Below, in pieces: positions 61,313-64,000 of a stretch of 64,000 bases of DNA. The position numbers and the translations under genes are program-made. The notes under the pieces are model-generated. The model was not told the origin of the DNA, did no database searches, and saw only the letters and a list, made by a program, of their open reading frames with translations. Numbering within the stretch: position 1 is the first letter of the stretch; each line of letters begins with the position of its first letter. The stretch comes from an uncultured Alphaproteobacteria bacterium (lineage in GTDB: Bacteria; Pseudomonadota; Alphaproteobacteria; RF32; CAG-239): NCBI GenBank assembly GCA_902464275.1, contig CABQIK010000007.1, forward strand, positions 8,613 through 72,612, given 5' to 3'.

Positions 61313-61765
61313 TTATACTTCGTAAAAATCCTCCACCGGAATTTTCAAGACTATTTTTTTGACATGGGTTGATCCGTTCACCGCCATACCCGGCATGTGT
61401 GCGAGGTCTGGACCGATGATGCAGGCTTCGCCGGCACGAAGAAGGACAGTATCTTTGACCTCTCCGGTCATGAACATGATGTCCTTTGTCTCATCGTACT
61501 CCTGCTCTACCTGAAACTCGTCCGTGATAGGAGCGAAGTGGATGAGTTCTGTACCGGACACGATGATTTGAACGTCCACCATTTTACGATGCGCCTCAAA
61601 GCGAGAGGTGAGTTTTGTCTCATACTCTTCCGCATTTGCGAACCGTCCACCGTCAAAATCGTAACGCTTAGGGACGAAATTCTCCATGAGTCTCTCAACA
61701 AGTTGTAGCATATCTGCCGGAACTTGACCTTGCTTAGCAAGGATTTTTACATTCAAGCTATCCAT
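61313..61765 (-). CDS. YhcH/YjgK/YiaL (DUF386) family protein
   Basis: C-terminal IGPDLAHMPG.....HVKKIVLKIPV matches the YhcH pattern F.P.D.H.PG...IRKIV.K. GC content is clearly higher than surrounding DNA. Start set at MDSLNV because a promoter lies inside the longer track ORF. Confidence 0.5.
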   Translation of the reverse strand: MDSLNVKILAKQGQVPADMLQLVERLMENFVPKRYDFDGGRFANAEEYETKLTSRFEAHRKMVDVQIIVSGTELIHFAPITDEFQVEQEYDETKDIMFMTGEVKDTVLLRAGEACIIGPDLAHMPGMAVNGSTHVKKIVLKIPVEDFYEV

Positions 61766-61787
61766 AAAAATAAAATTTGCAATTATG

Positions 61788-61816
61788 CTTATACCGCGTA
61801 TGGACTTTTTTGTCAA
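61788..61816 (-). promoter_or_regulatory. sigma70-like promoter TTGACA-N17-TATAAG for the YhcH-like gene
   Basis: On the minus strand, TTGACA (61816..61811) and TATAAG (61793..61788) are separated by 17 nt, about 20 nt upstream of the chosen ATG. Confidence 0.5.
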
Positions 61817-61943
61817 TATATTTTTGCAGAAATCAGGCAATTTTATTTATATTCGTAAATTTTATGTCAAAAATTACCTGATTATTAAAAAAATACTCTT
61901 GACAAGCCGCGTTTAATGGCGTATACAACACTCACTTTTACAT

Positions 61944-62020
61944 CGCGGGGTAGAGCAGCCCGGTAGCTCGTCAGGCTCATAACCTGAAGGTCGTTGGTTC
62001 AAATCCTTCCCCCGCAACCA
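61944..62020 (+). tRNA. tRNA-Met (CAU), initiator-type
   Basis: CGCGGGGTAGAGCAGCCCGGTAGCTCGTCAGGCTCATAACCTGAAGGTCGTTGGTTCAAATCCTTCCCCCGCAACCA. 77 nt. C1xA72 mismatch and anticodon CAU. Close to E. coli tRNA-fMet. Confidence 0.9.
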
Positions 62021-62178
62021 ATAAAACTAAAATACGCCCGTTCGTAAGAATGGGTGTGTTTTTGTTTTAAATGTGTTGCAAGGAGTTGAACCAACGAAAA
62101 AAGTTGGTTCACTACAAGCGAAAGGCAGGAGCAACATTAGCCGATTAGTACAGCATAATTACATCAACCGGAGAAAAA

Positions 62179-62670
62179 ATGAATAATATAAGAAAAGCCA
62201 CAATCAATGATGCTTCAATTATTGCAGAGATAAGTATTGATAGTTGGAAAAGTGCTTATAAAGGGCTCTTGCCGCCCAAATTGTTGCTAAACAGAAAAGC
62301 CGATAAAAAAAGAATAACCGCTTGGAAAGATAATATCGCTAATAGCGATTATACCGTATTGGTTTATGAACAAAACAAAGTTTGCGGCTATTTATGGGCA
62401 GGTAAAAAAAGAGATAAAATTGATATTCCTTATGAAATATATGCCATATACGTTAGTCCGCAATACCAAAGATTAGGGATTGGACAAGCTCTAATCAATG
62501 AATATAAAAAATTAATCAACAATCAGCCGTTTTATTTATATATGTTAAAAGGGAATGTTCCCGCCTCTGCTTTTTATAAAAAGATGGGAGGAAAAGAAAA
62601 CGTATATTACAATAAAAAAATTTCTGTTAACGAATATACCATTGAAGAAGAAATTTATATTTTTGAGTAA
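62179..62670 (+). CDS. GNAT family N-acetyltransferase
   Basis: 163 aa. Acetyl-CoA binding motif QRLGIGQALI. Very AT-rich. Confidence 0.7.
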   Translation: MNNIRKATINDASIIAEISIDSWKSAYKGLLPPKLLLNRKADKKRITAWKDNIANSDYTVLVYEQNKVCGYLWAGKKRDKIDIPYEIYAIYVSPQYQRLGIGQALINEYKKLINNQPFYLYMLKGNVPASAFYKKMGGKENVYYNKKISVNEYTIEEEIYIFE

Positions 62671-62706
62671 TAAAAATTCGTTTATTGATGGCAAAAAGCG
62701 CTATAT

Positions 62707-63429
62707 CTATTTTATGGTAATGCTTGGATTATCTTCTTGGTTTGCAATTATTATTCTCCTGCCACCGGAAAAATACATAATAAACTTTTCCAAATCATAA
62801 TCATCTTCATATGAATCAACAACAAGTGATATATCTTCTAACTCTGAATCAATCATAAAATCAAAGATATGAGAAATATCGTTATATACGTTAGTATCAT
62901 TATAACCGGGTTTCCATTCCGTAATATTAACATCTTTGGTTGAAAAAAGATTTAAATAATTATGGCTGTTTAATGATACATCATATTGATATGAGCCATA
63001 AATTTTAATTTTTAAAAACTGATTATCAAAAACAAAACCGAAATCTTCAAAATAAACCTTCCGATAATTATCAAACATAACCGGACAATCGCTTGTAAAT
63101 TCAGTATGCCAAATGCTTTTATTAACAATGTATTTTAGTTTTTTCCCGACTAAAGCTTGTTTTAATTCAGGCAAAACATTTTCCAATTCTCTTGCATCAG
63201 CAGATACATCTTTTTTGAGCGGAACATCTATCTTTTTGCTGTCATCAATCTTAATTTCAACACACATATTAAATCCTTTTATGATTGTGCTAATTGTAAA
63301 ACATAAATCTCTCAAACGCAAGAAAATATCTGTAAAGTTATTACCCGACACTTTAATCTGCATGCTGAGTGTATCAGCCACTTGCACAACAAATATAAAC
63401 AGTGATTTTTGCCTTTTATATAAACCCAT
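62707..63429 (-). CDS. hypothetical protein
   Basis: AT-rich ORF between the GNAT gene and the recombinase. The start is uncertain because several in-frame Met codons are present. Confidence 0.35.
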   Translation of the reverse strand: MGLYKRQKSLFIFVVQVADTLSMQIKVSGNNFTDIFLRLRDLCFTISTIIKGFNMCVEIKIDDSKKIDVPLKKDVSADARELENVLPELKQALVGKKLKYIVNKSIWHTEFTSDCPVMFDNYRKVYFEDFGFVFDNQFLKIKIYGSYQYDVSLNSHNYLNLFSTKDVNITEWKPGYNDTNVYNDISHIFDFMIDSELEDISLVVDSYEDDYDLEKFIMYFSGGRRIIIANQEDNPSITIK

Positions 63430-63518
63430 CTATACCGATTACACCAACGACACTCCCGAAACCATCAGGCAAATTGATAGAAATAATATTGTTTATGAGG
63501 AAATGTGCGAGGAATAAA

Positions 63519-64000
63519 TTATTCAGTTAAGATTACATTATTAATAAAATTTCGCACGGTTTCTCTGTCTACGTGTAATTTTTTGGCAATAGCTGTTTTG
63601 CTTTCTCCGTTAGCTAACAACTTTTGTATAATAGATTCCTTGCCTGAAAGTTTTAAATATGAGCTTTTTGTGCCATAAGGTCTACCAAGAATTTTCCCGG
63701 AAGCACGTCTCGCGGCTAAAGCTTCTTTTGTGCGCTGACTTATTAAATTTCGCTCTAATTCAGCTGTTAGCCCAAATGCAAAAGCTAATATTTTCCCCTG
63801 AATTCCTGCATCTAAGCGATAATTGTCTTTTATGGTCCAAATGTTAGCACCGATGTTCATACAATGGTTTAATATTCCCATTATTTGTAATAAATCTCTT
63901 CCCAATCTAGACAATTCACTGGTAATAAGCATATCTCCTTTTTTAATCCTTTTTATAAGTTTGCCTAATTTCCTTTTTTGTAAATCTTGGCGAGAGCTGA
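63519..64000 (-). mobile_element. serine recombinase (resolvase/invertase family), N-terminus beyond window end
   Basis: The frame stays open upstream of the track start and reads ...KKGDMLITSELSRLGRD (resolvase catalytic-domain motif). It also has ELERNLISQRTKEALAARRASGKILGRP and a C-terminal HTH KTAIAKKLHVDRETVRNF. Confidence 0.8.

What the first reader, a model, noticed from the sequence alone, without database searches (positions are those of the whole stretch)
61313..64000. Compositionally heterogeneous patch around tRNA-fMet: GC-rich YhcH-like gene with its own consensus promoter on one side, AT-rich GNAT/hypothetical/serine-recombinase islet on the other
The initiator tRNA at 61944..62020 is flanked 5' by a gene whose GC content and codon usage differ clearly from the rest of the window. 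That gene is a YhcH/YjgK/YiaL-like protein with a textbook TTGACA-N17-TATAAG promoter. The tRNA is flanked 3' by roughly 2 kb of very AT-rich DNA encoding a GNAT acetyltransferase, a 240-aa orphan protein and a resolvase/invertase-type serine recombinase that continues past the window end. An inverted repeat GTTGAACCAAC-gaaaaaa-GTTGGTTCAAC-like (62086..62112) echoes the tRNA T-loop sequence GGTTCAAATCC, which is a possible att remnant. This is consistent with a small integrated or invertible element at a tRNA gene whose other boundary is outside the window.
Basis: partly seen in the sequence, partly recalled or inferred. Interest (0 to 1): 0.55.

Follow-up and report, generated by a model that had tools for sequence, protein, structure and literature searches.

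The report
Switchable restriction-system edge beside initiator tRNA
The AT-rich patch beside the initiator tRNA is not one inserted element but a junction of separately shuffled gene modules, ending in a DNA-flipping enzyme that switches the target specificity of a restriction-modification defence system lying just past the window end; this is a known kind of system in an uncultured gut proteobacterium.

Summary
The tRNA-Met(CAT), YhcH/DUF386 gene, GNAT gene, a long ORF and a truncated serine recombinase are at the stated coordinates. The region 62021-64000 is the most AT-rich DNA in the window (31.8% vs 42.2% GC). The DUF386 gene is only mildly GC-rich, but its codon usage is the most atypical in the window.

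The patch is a mosaic of three modules:
- A conserved DUF386 / tRNA-fMet / terminator / hairpin block.
- A 1.1-kb AT-rich GNAT + orphan-protein cassette, also found elsewhere without a tRNA.
- A scar of a phage lysis gene plus an Mpi-family small serine invertase.

Related contigs show the invertase sits next to a type I R-M system with an inverted silent half-hsdS. Its 79-89-nt inverted repeats keep the reading frame on inversion. For a sister allele of the recombinase (72% identical protein), both orientations were recovered from two metagenomes.

Downstream content differs between strains: alternative R-M systems, a deletion derivative and phage tail genes. No integrase or att direct repeat occurs in this species. 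A relative has a 16-nt tRNA 3'-end repeat.

Verdict: new member of a known kind (phase-variable type I R-M in a defence hotspot), of modest interest. The orphan protein family is the most novel loose end.

The parts
61257..61286 (.). Terminator-like hairpin between the convergent pilin-like gene and the DUF386 gene.
   Evidence: Terminator scan.
61313..61765 (-). YhcH/YjgK/YiaL (DUF386) gene of 150 aa. It belongs to the conserved DUF386 / tRNA-fMet block.
   Evidence: Pfam PF04074 3.6e-26 and TIGR00022. It is conserved next to tRNA-fMet in the relative L020 at 87% aa identity. GC3 is 53% and codon-usage z is -7.8. The 3' two-thirds is only 89% identical in strains whose flanks are 100% identical.
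61788..61816 (-). Promoter-like TTGACA-N17-TATAAG upstream of DUF386.
   Evidence: Read from the sequence. The consensus scan did not report it because the -10 hexamer lacks T6, and matches in the region are not above chance.
61899..61927 (+). Promoter-like TTGACA-N17-TATACA, ending 16 nt upstream of the tRNA.
   Evidence: Read from the sequence. It is conserved in L020, L001 and L007.
61944..62020 (+). Initiator-type tRNA-Met(CAT). It has the C1xA72 mismatch, A29:U41 in place of the first of the three G:C pairs of the anticodon stem, and two U.U mismatches in the T stem.
   Evidence: ARAGORN. The Rfam alignment flags the non-canonical pairs. The gene is identical or nearly so (at most one substitution) in all related loci examined.
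62029..62062 (+). Intrinsic terminator of the tRNA.
   Evidence: and fold. Relatives carry a different hairpin sequence at the same position.
62081..62133 (+). Conserved element with a hairpin at 62085-62112. Its left arm is an inverted 17/18 copy of the tRNA T arm.
   Evidence: It is conserved in L001, L020 and L024, although the terminator in between is not. In L024 it forms the 5' end of a small ORF.
62141..63340 (.). AT-rich GNAT + orf186 two-gene cassette. The right limit lies somewhere between 63235 and 63340.
   Evidence: Window 62141-63235 aligns at 83.5% with L043, where there is no tRNA. L003 homology ends at 63340. The GNAT part is 99% identical in L001, whose core genes are 90-97% identical.
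62179..62670 (+). GNAT N-acetyltransferase of 163 aa.
   Evidence: Pfam hits. The best solved structures are generic PaiA-like acetyltransferases. Homologues at 74% and 55% identity sit in an operon of short peptide, two radical SAM/SPASM genes, GNAT and M20 peptidase.
62707..63267 (-). orf186, an orphan protein. The mechanical ORF extends to 63429, giving 240 aa.
   Evidence: Only 2 clusters among 5.8 billion proteins and 7 representatives among 1.84 billion. The AF2 model has pLDDT 83 and pTM 0.84. No PDB or viral structural neighbour was found.
63353..63517 (+). 3' remnant (about 44 codons) of a small gene that sits directly beside the recombinase. The gene is intact (64-68 aa) where the recombinase lies next to a phage endolysin and tail genes. 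The junction lies at 63353-63381.
   Evidence: junction alignments. In L036 the neighbouring 136-aa ORF matches endolysin phrog_873 at 5.5e-59.
63519..64000 (-). Mpi-family small serine DNA invertase, residues 42-200. The first 41 codons, including the catalytic Ser9, lie beyond the window end.
   Evidence: NF009949 scores 210.6 bits for the fragment. The full 200-aa protein read from L006 (100% identical DNA) scores 288.4 against a cutoff of 272. Pfam Resolvase plus HTH hits.

Best explanation
The patch is the edge of a strain-variable defence hotspot downstream of tRNA-fMet, assembled from separately exchanged modules.

- Module 1 (61244-62133) holds DUF386, tRNA-fMet, its terminator and a conserved hairpin. 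It is an old, clade-wide block.
- Module 2 (62141 to about 63340) is an AT-rich cassette with a stand-alone GNAT acetyltransferase and a convergent orphan gene, orf186.
- Module 3 (from about 63353 onward) starts with the scar of a small gene that elsewhere sits beside a phage endolysin, followed by an Mpi-family small serine invertase. The rest of module 3 lies just beyond the window. [quoted passage not shown]

Proposed mechanism: the invertase recombines the 79-89-nt inverted repeats at the start of the target-recognition domain in hsdS and in the silent cassette. This flips the intervening DNA and swaps the C-terminal recognition domain. The cell population then carries two R-M and methylation specificities.

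Shown here: the inverted repeats, frame preservation on inversion, and both orientations in nature for a sister allele of the recombinase.

Inferred: that this recombinase is the catalyst, and that specificity and methylation actually change.
For: Family assignment:
- The full-length recombinase passes the NCBIfam Mpi equivalog cutoff (288.4 vs 272).

Architecture in related contigs:
- L015 shares 61988-63985 with the window at 92.8% identity. Its order is GNAT, orf240, recombinase, inverted partial hsdS, hsdS, hsdM, hsdR, LMWPc.
- L015 has 89-nt inverted repeats (88% match, with a perfectly matching core of about 59 nt), one inside hsdS and one beside the recombinase. Simulated inversion gives an intact 494-aa HsdS, against 486 aa in the assembled form.

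Inversion observed:
- L041, from another sample, is 100% identical to L015 across the recombinase and orf240. It carries L015's expressed TRD2 (6090-6576) inverted in the silent position at 99.2% identity. This is the predicted inversion product.
- Four contigs end inside the recombinase-proximal repeat arm.

The window's own allele:
- L006 is 100% identical to the window. It shows the repeat arm and a silent hsdS fragment 53-170 nt past the recombinase start.
- L022 has a 99% identical recombinase and 79-nt repeats (97% match). Inversion there also stays in frame (406 aa becomes 436 aa).

Strain variability:
- Homology to the window ends at 62678 (L001/2), 63340 (L003), 63604 (L004 type, a deletion leaving 86 nt of the recombinase and a truncated HsdR) and 63353-63381 (L022/L023).

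Literature:
- Mpi-family recombinases are enriched next to genes targeted by programmed inversions, alongside type I S subunits (PMC9881135).
- Serine invertases have been predicted at hsdS invertons, but only at a handful of loci (PMC7672463).
Against: - The invertible DNA itself is not in the window. For the window's own strain, the only identical contig (L006) ends inside the silent cassette, so its hsdS, hsdM and hsdR were not seen.
- Both orientations were demonstrated for the L015-type allele (72% aa identity to the window's recombinase, with a different repeat sequence), not for the window type.
- In L026-L035 the same recombinase family sits beside a half-size hsdS with no silent cassette. 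Adjacency therefore does not always mean an active switch.
- In L036 a different segment (TRD1) is inverted and hsdS is truncated to 129 aa. That could be a second inversion mode, decay or misassembly.
- No experiment links the enzyme to the inversion.
Confidence: 0.8

Rival explanations
1. A genomic island or prophage integrated into the 3' end of tRNA-fMet. GNAT, orf186, the recombinase and the R-M system would be its cargo, and the far att site would lie outside the window.
For: - The patch lies directly 3' of a tRNA, is AT-rich and has strain-variable content.
- In the relative L020, a 16-nt direct repeat of the tRNA 3' end lies 177 nt downstream and is followed by its own terminator. The conserved hairpin lies between the two copies.
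- The recombinase side carries a scar of a small gene that elsewhere sits beside a phage endolysin. In L022 and L036 the same R-M/invertase module abuts phage lysis and tail genes.
- Some phages carry attP-like 47-nt tRNA-fMet 3' fragments (L053, L056).
- Four independent short contigs end at 61988-61998, inside the T arm.
Against: - No integrase was found in the window or in 8-10 kb of any same-species contig.
- No second copy of the tRNA 3' end (12-30-mers) occurs in any same-species locus.
- The GNAT/orf186 cassette and the R-M/invertase module each occur independently elsewhere, without a tRNA.
- Segment identities show several separate histories rather than one element.
- The recombinase is a 200-aa invertase type, not a large serine integrase.
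Confidence: 0.15
2. GNAT and orf186 are a functional pair, either a toxin-antitoxin, an immunity pair or a small defence system. They would be the real point of the islet, with the recombinase only a neighbour.
For: - The convergent pair is conserved as a unit at 83.5% nt identity in a second genomic context, among defence-like genes (AAA + PDDEXK_4, WYL, PIF1-like helicase).
- A 41%-identical orf186 homologue sits beside a divergent WYL regulator.
- The GNAT segment is 99% identical between lineages whose core differs by 3-10%, suggesting recent spread.
- GNAT homologues belong to a RiPP-like radical-SAM operon. A stand-alone copy could therefore be an orphan immunity gene (this last step is inference).
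Against: - Neither protein hits PADLOC or any defence or TA family.
- The GNAT resembles generic PaiA-like enzymes, not TacT/AtaT.
- No RHH antitoxin gene lies upstream, and the genes are convergent rather than an operon.
- More distant orf186 homologues lack a GNAT neighbour, and GNAT homologues lack orf186.
- Two genes moving on one 1.1-kb fragment does not prove functional coupling.
Confidence: 0.15
3. The recombinase is a relic or a resolvase with no current inversion role, and the differences between contigs are assembly artefacts.
For: - Deletion derivatives and half-size hsdS variants show that the module decays.
- L036 has a truncated hsdS.
- All the evidence comes from metagenome assemblies.
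Against: - The recombinase ORF is intact in L006.
- L015 and L041 are independent assemblies that differ by a precise reciprocal exchange at the repeats.
- Both simulated inversions keep long ORFs open.
- The repeats are much better conserved than the flanking TRD sequence.
Confidence: 0.05

Closest known systems
Phase-variable type I R-M systems, also called 'epigenetic invertons' (S. pneumoniae SpnD39III/ivr with PsrA, B. fragilis, Mycoplasma pulmonis hsd loci).
   Same: An expressed hsdS plus a silent, inverted partial hsdS. Inverted repeats sit at the start of the recognition domain. A recombinase gene lies next to the repeats. Inversion preserves the frame and yields alternative HsdS proteins. 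Both orientations are found in populations.
   Different: The recombinase is a small serine invertase of the Mpi family, whereas nearly all described hsdS invertases are tyrosine recombinases (PMC7672463; PMC7641763). The host is an uncultured gut proteobacterium. Only one silent cassette is seen per locus. The module also occurs at the end of a phage tail and lysis region.
Mpi, the master DNA invertase of Bacteroides fragilis (NCBIfam NF009949).
   Same: Same sequence family by the curated equivalog model. It is a small serine recombinase with a C-terminal HTH.
   Different: Mpi acts on many distant promoter invertons. Here the only candidate sites are local and lie inside hsdS. No further copy of the site occurs in the 64-kb window. 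The host is not a Bacteroides: genes have Shine-Dalgarno sequences and the closest named relatives are proteobacterial MAGs.
Hin/Gin/Cin/Pin phage and flagellar invertases.
   Same: A small serine invertase encoded immediately beside its invertible segment. In L022 and L036 the gene lies next to phage lysis and tail genes, as gin and cin lie next to tail-fibre genes.
   Different: The inverted coding segment is hsdS, not a tail-fibre or flagellin switch. No inversion was detected on the phage side (L026 and L027 are identical there). Dependence on a Fis-type enhancer is unknown.
tRNA-associated genomic islands and defence islands.
   Same: Located 3' of a tRNA, AT-rich, with rapid strain-to-strain turnover of R-M and other defence genes.
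   Different: No integrase and no flanking direct repeats in this species. Turnover appears to occur by cassette replacement and deletion between conserved flanks.

Membership tests
Mpi-family small serine DNA invertase (NF009949) | Score above the curated equivalog cutoff. | tested here: met
   288.4 bits against a cutoff of 272 for the full-length protein read from L006, which is 100% identical to the window DNA. The in-window fragment scores 210.6 bits over 154 of 203 model positions.
Mpi-family small serine DNA invertase (NF009949) | N-terminal resolvase catalytic domain with a Ser nucleophile, plus a C-terminal HTH, about 200 aa in total. | tested here: met
   Pfam Resolvase 1.2e-19 plus HTH families. 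The YIRVS motif (Ser9) is seen in L006. Ser9 lies outside the window.
Mpi-family small serine DNA invertase (NF009949) | Global action on many distant invertible promoters. | tested here: not met
   No further match to the repeat core within 64 kb at up to 3 mismatches. No long inverted repeats elsewhere in the window resemble it. The rest of the genome could not be tested.
Phase-variable type I R-M (hsdS inverton) | Complete hsdR, hsdM and hsdS next to the recombinase. | tested here: inconclusive
   Met in the related strains L015 and L036 (PADLOC REase_I, MTase_I and Specificity_I hits, E values 1e-121 to 4.6e-287). For the window's own strain, contig L006 ends inside the silent hsdS cassette.
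Phase-variable type I R-M (hsdS inverton) | Silent partial hsdS in inverted orientation, sharing inverted repeats with the expressed hsdS. | tested here: met
   L015 has 89-nt arms. L022, whose recombinase is 99% identical to the window's, has 79-nt arms at 97% match. L006 shows the recombinase-proximal arm and the start of the silent cassette.
Phase-variable type I R-M (hsdS inverton) | Inversion keeps hsdS in frame and yields an alternative full-length protein. | tested here: met
   Simulated inversions give 486 to 494 aa in L015 and 406 to 436 aa in L022.
Phase-variable type I R-M (hsdS inverton) | Both orientations exist in natural populations. | tested here: met
   L041 against L015 shows a reciprocal arrangement at 99-100% identity. 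Four contigs break inside the repeat arm. This was shown for the L015-type allele only.
Phase-variable type I R-M (hsdS inverton) | Methylation or restriction specificity changes with orientation. | not testable with these tools
   Needs methylome data (SMRT or ONT) or restriction assays.
tRNA-integrated genomic island or prophage | Integrase gene near one end. | tested here: not met
   None in 62021-64000 or in the 8-10 kb downstream in L001-L019.
tRNA-integrated genomic island or prophage | Direct repeat of the tRNA 3' end at the distal boundary. | tested here: inconclusive
   Absent from all same-species loci (12- to 30-mers), but those contigs all end about 300-450 nt past LMWPc. Present in the relative L020, where a 16-nt repeat lies 177 nt downstream.
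GNAT toxin-antitoxin (TacAT / AtaRT type) | RHH/DUF1778 antitoxin gene directly upstream in one operon, and a toxin-type GNAT. | tested here: not met
   No ORF lies between the tRNA and the GNAT gene. The best PDB relatives are PaiA-like acetyltransferases. There are no PADLOC hits.

The most novel reading that the evidence does not exclude
The 1.1-kb AT-rich GNAT + orf186 cassette is a new two-gene immunity or defence module. The GNAT has been detached from a radical-SAM/SPASM + M20 peptidase RiPP-like operon. It would act as an orphan resistance enzyme against that operon's product. orf186 belongs to a family of only about 7 representative clusters in 1.84 billion. Its predicted beta-rich fold has no neighbour in the PDB or the viral structure library. 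It would be a new partner or effector that is recruited next to WYL regulators.
Probability: 0.12. Interest if true: 0.6.

Novelty: new member of a known kind. Interest (0 to 1): 0.33.

Why it matters
This locus adds a clear natural example of a type I R-M specificity switch driven by an Mpi-family serine invertase, a combination so far only predicted bioinformatically. Both states were recovered from gut metagenomes, in an uncultured gut proteobacterial lineage.

It also explains why assemblies of this organism repeatedly break here. In addition, it shows how a defence hotspot beside an essential tRNA turns over by cassette swapping and deletion rather than by integrase-mediated insertion.

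It does not change current understanding of these systems. The orphan orf186 family and the stand-alone GNAT are the only parts that could lead to something new.

Tried and rejected
- Toxin-antitoxin or known defence function for GNAT/orf240. Pfam, NCBIfam, PADLOC, PHROGs and PDB sequence searches gave only generic GNAT hits, and nothing for orf240.
- First AF2 model of orf186 from 3 sequences was unusable (pLDDT 33). A 6-sequence alignment gave pLDDT 83, but Foldseek found no neighbour in the PDB or BFVD.
- Searched for the tRNA 3' end as a direct repeat in all fetched loci. None was found in the same species.
- Searched viral contigs for the conserved hairpin element (0 hits) and for the recombinase (no relatives). 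The metagenome scan for the element gave only two loci.
- Tested whether the variable gene calls to the right of the recombinase in L026-L028 reflect inversion on the phage side. The DNA is identical, so they are gene-calling differences.
- Tested whether the short contigs spanning the tRNA to LMWPc are circular. They have no terminal overlap.
- Looked for additional invertase target sites or invertons in the window. None were found.
- An Rfam search of 61850-62250 found only the tRNA. The weak miRNA-family hits simply reflect the palindrome.
- 'DUF386 is a recent foreign gene' was rejected, because its composition is the same in all alleles and species.
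Full report
**1. What is in the window**

ARAGORN and Rfam place a tRNA-Met(CAT) at 61944-62020 on the + strand. It has the C1xA72 mismatch of a bacterial initiator tRNA.

The neighbouring genes are as follows.
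- Upstream on the - strand is a 150-aa YhcH/DUF386 gene at 61313-61765 (PF04074, 3.6e-26).
- Downstream is a 163-aa GNAT gene at 62179-62670 (+).
- Next is an ORF at 62707-63429 (-) with no family in Pfam, NCBIfam, PADLOC or PHROGs.
- Last is a resolvase-domain ORF that runs from 63519 off the window end.

**2. Composition**

The window is 42.2% GC, with an sd of 3.8 points per kb. The region 62021-64000 is 31.8% GC and is the lowest stretch in the window. Against 49 window ORFs, the GC3 z-scores are -2.9 for GNAT, -3.7 for orf186 and -3.0 for the recombinase.

The DUF386 gene is 47.2% GC (z = +1.1), so it is not an outlier. It does have the highest GC3 in the window (53%) and the most atypical synonymous codon usage (z = -7.8, against a reference sd of 1.9 and minimum of -4.1). 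All alleles and related species share this composition, so it is an old trait rather than a recent import.

The promoter-like TTGACA-N17-TATAAG site exists at 61788-61816 (-). A similar TTGACA-N17-TATACA site precedes the tRNA. Consensus matches in the region are not above chance, and both -10 hexamers lack the usual final T.

**3. The recombinase**

The in-window fragment hits NCBIfam NF009949, 'master DNA invertase Mpi family', at 1.8e-62.

Metagenome contig L006 is 100% identical to window 59000-64000 and extends 684 nt further. It yields the full 200-aa protein, with a YIRVS catalytic motif and a C-terminal HTH. This protein passes the curated equivalog cutoff (288.4 vs 272).

About 53 nt beyond its start codon, L006 carries a repeat arm and the start of an hsdS-like recognition domain that reads away from the recombinase. 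The contig ends inside that domain.

**4. What the recombinase sits next to**

L015 is 92.8% identical to the window over 61988-63985. Its order is GNAT, orf240, recombinase, an inverted partial hsdS, hsdS, hsdM, hsdR, LMWPc.

L015 has 89-nt inverted repeats (88% match, with a perfectly matching core of about 59 nt). One arm lies at the start of the second recognition domain of hsdS. The other lies at the start of the silent copy, 40 nt from the recombinase gene. Inverting the DNA between them in silico gives an intact 494-aa HsdS with a different C-terminal domain.

L022 has a recombinase 99% identical to the window's. It has 79-nt repeats at 97% match, and inversion there also stays in frame (406 aa becomes 436 aa).

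**5. Evidence that inversion happens**

L041, from a different sample, is 100% identical to L015 across the recombinase and orf240. In the silent position it carries L015's expressed domain (L015 6090-6576) inverted, at 99.2% identity. This is exactly the predicted product.

Four other contigs stop inside the recombinase-proximal repeat arm. That is what an assembler does when both orientations coexist in a sample.

L036, from an NCBI MAG, shows yet another arrangement. The first recognition domain is inverted next to the recombinase, and hsdS is truncated. This could be a second inversion mode, decay or misassembly.

These demonstrations concern the L015-type allele, which is 72% identical in protein to the window's recombinase. 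For the window type, I have the repeats and frame preservation only.

**6. The locus is a mosaic, not one element**

Homology between the window and other contigs of the same or closely related lineages stops at four discrete points.
- At 62678, just after GNAT, in L001/L002. A different type I R-M follows, with Fic/RhuM, GIY-YIG and DUF6119 genes.
- At 63340 in L003. Another type I R-M follows.
- At 63604 in the L004 type. This is a deletion that leaves 86 nt of the recombinase fused to a truncated HsdR, followed by AAA_21, DUF2130 and LMWPc.
- At 63353-63381 in L022/L023. The recombinase and R-M module there abut small ORFs and phage tail genes.

In L036 the 136-aa ORF among those small ORFs matches a phage endolysin family at 5.5e-59. 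The window retains only the last ~44 codons of the adjacent small gene (63353-63517). The window arrangement is therefore derived.

Segment-by-segment identities tell the same story.
- The recombinase is only 69% identical in nucleotides between the two allele types, while the adjacent 166 nt are 100% identical.
- The GNAT segment is 99% identical to L001, whose core genes are 90-97% identical.
- The 3' two-thirds of DUF386 is 89% identical in strains whose flanks are 100% identical.

**7. GNAT and the orphan gene**

The long ORF's first 54 codons span the 63340-63381 junction and are absent from relatives. The real gene is most likely 186 aa, starting at the ATG at 63267 with an AAAGGA ribosome-binding site.

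The family is tiny. It has 2 clusters among 5.8 billion proteins and 7 representatives among 1.84 billion. A 6-sequence AF2 model is confident (pLDDT 83, pTM 0.84). It has no structural neighbour in the PDB or BFVD (best E about 0.1, TM below 0.36).

The GNAT + orf186 pair (window 62141-63235) recurs at 83.5% identity in L043. There it has no tRNA nearby and sits among AAA/PDDEXK_4, WYL and PIF1-like genes. A 41%-identical orf186 homologue sits beside a divergent WYL regulator and a DnaB_C-like gene.

The GNAT resembles generic PaiA-like enzymes, not TacT/AtaT toxins. Its homologues at 74% and 55% identity lie in an AT-rich operon of short peptide(s), two radical-SAM/SPASM enzymes, GNAT and an M20 peptidase. 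The window contains only the GNAT. A stand-alone 'orphan immunity' role is an inference, not a result.

**8. The tRNA-proximal hairpin and the att question**

The hairpin at 62085-62112 is real. Its left arm and flank (62081-62098) are a 17/18 inverted copy of the tRNA T arm. By my own arithmetic, about 1e-4 such matches are expected by chance in the window. No other copy exists in the window or any fetched locus.

The element at 62081-62133 is conserved next to tRNA-fMet in L001, L020 and L024. The terminator between the tRNA and the element has a different sequence in each.

Two relatives add detail.
- In L020, the only named relative ('MAG: Proteobacteria bacterium'), the element lies in a 177-nt segment ending in a 16-nt direct repeat of the tRNA 3' end. 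A second terminator follows. This looks like an old att duplication.
- In L024 the element is the 5' end of a small membrane-protein ORF.

In the window species, no second copy of the tRNA 3' end and no integrase occurs in any contig. All of those contigs end shortly after LMWPc, so the far boundary remains unseen.

**9. Comparison with what is known**

Phase-variable type I R-M systems driven by hsdS inversion are well described, almost always with tyrosine recombinases.
- Huang et al. 2020 found serine-family invertase homologues at only a handful of such loci (PMC7672463).
- Milman et al. [quoted passage not shown]
- The B. fragilis hsdS switch has putative tyrosine recombinase genes flanking the locus, proposed to mediate the inversions (PMC7641763).

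This locus is therefore a new member of a known kind. The family assignment to Mpi holds by sequence. The 'master', multi-site behaviour of Mpi is not seen here, because no other site occurs in the 64 kb.

**10. Verdict**

It is not a single integrated or invertible islet. Interest is modest. The orphan orf186 family, the detached GNAT and the odd T stem of the tRNA are the loose ends worth a note.

Noticed in passing
window 61944-62020: The initiator tRNA has two U.U mismatches in its T stem (GUUGG/CCUUC, flagged by cmscan) and A29:U41 in place of the first of the three anticodon-stem G:C pairs. The sequence is identical or nearly so (at most one substitution) in all related loci. Phage attP-like fragments of tRNA-fMet (L053, L056) carry the canonical GAAGG. 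Whether this is the genome's only initiator tRNA is unknown.
   Followed up: partly
window 61988-61998; L015, L017, L018, L019: Four short contigs from independent samples end inside the tRNA T arm at one end. At the other end they stop about 300-450 nt past LMWPc, near TTATCCACA / TTTTCCACA (DnaA-box-like) motifs. The ~8-9-kb segment therefore assembles as a separate unit. There is no terminal overlap, so it is not circular. The cause is unexplained.
   Followed up: partly
window 42090-42190, 48655-48746, 60513-60618: A repeat of about 100 nt occurs at least three times in the window. One copy lies directly upstream of the pilin-like gene at 60623-61237. The repeat is also present in the relatives L020 and L043. 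It may be a shared promoter or leader of a prepilin-like gene family.
   Followed up: no
window 60623-61237: A prepilin-type N-terminal-motif protein (204 aa) is highly variable between lineages. It is 74% identical in L001, which carries two genes here, and L008 has a 243-aa variant.
   Followed up: no
window 61313-61765: The DUF386 gene is a mosaic allele. The first 187 nt are nearly identical to other strains. Positions 188-449 carry 50 of the 51 differences, while both flanks are 100% identical.
   Followed up: partly
L020 2276-8444 vs window 8429-2262: In the related MAG, the DUF386 / tRNA-fMet block is joined through a copy of the ~100-nt repeat to DNA that lies 53 kb away in the window (94% identity). 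This is either a rearrangement or a chimeric MAG contig.
   Followed up: no
L059 3700-7632; L061-L063 3637-7638: An AT-rich operon encodes short peptides (for example MENNKNADTWKITMKQALENGCLINFN), two radical-SAM/SPASM enzymes, a GNAT 55-74% identical to the window's, and an M20 peptidase. It looks like a RiPP-like biosynthetic cluster.
   Followed up: partly
L036 9013-9947: In an NCBI MAG (GCA_964329035.1) the first recognition domain of hsdS is inverted next to the recombinase, and the expressed hsdS is cut to 129 aa. This could be a second inversion mode through the repeat at the TRD1 start, an OFF state, or a misassembly.
   Followed up: partly
window 23095-24955 and 40973-42025: Two other AT-rich patches have GC 31-34% and GC3 25-27%. 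The second is followed by a copy of the ~100-nt repeat and by tRNA-Ala at 42918-42993.
   Followed up: no
L049, L051, L057: The exact 25-nt 3' end of this tRNA-fMet also occurs in tRNA-Met genes inside large tRNA arrays of viral contigs.
   Followed up: no
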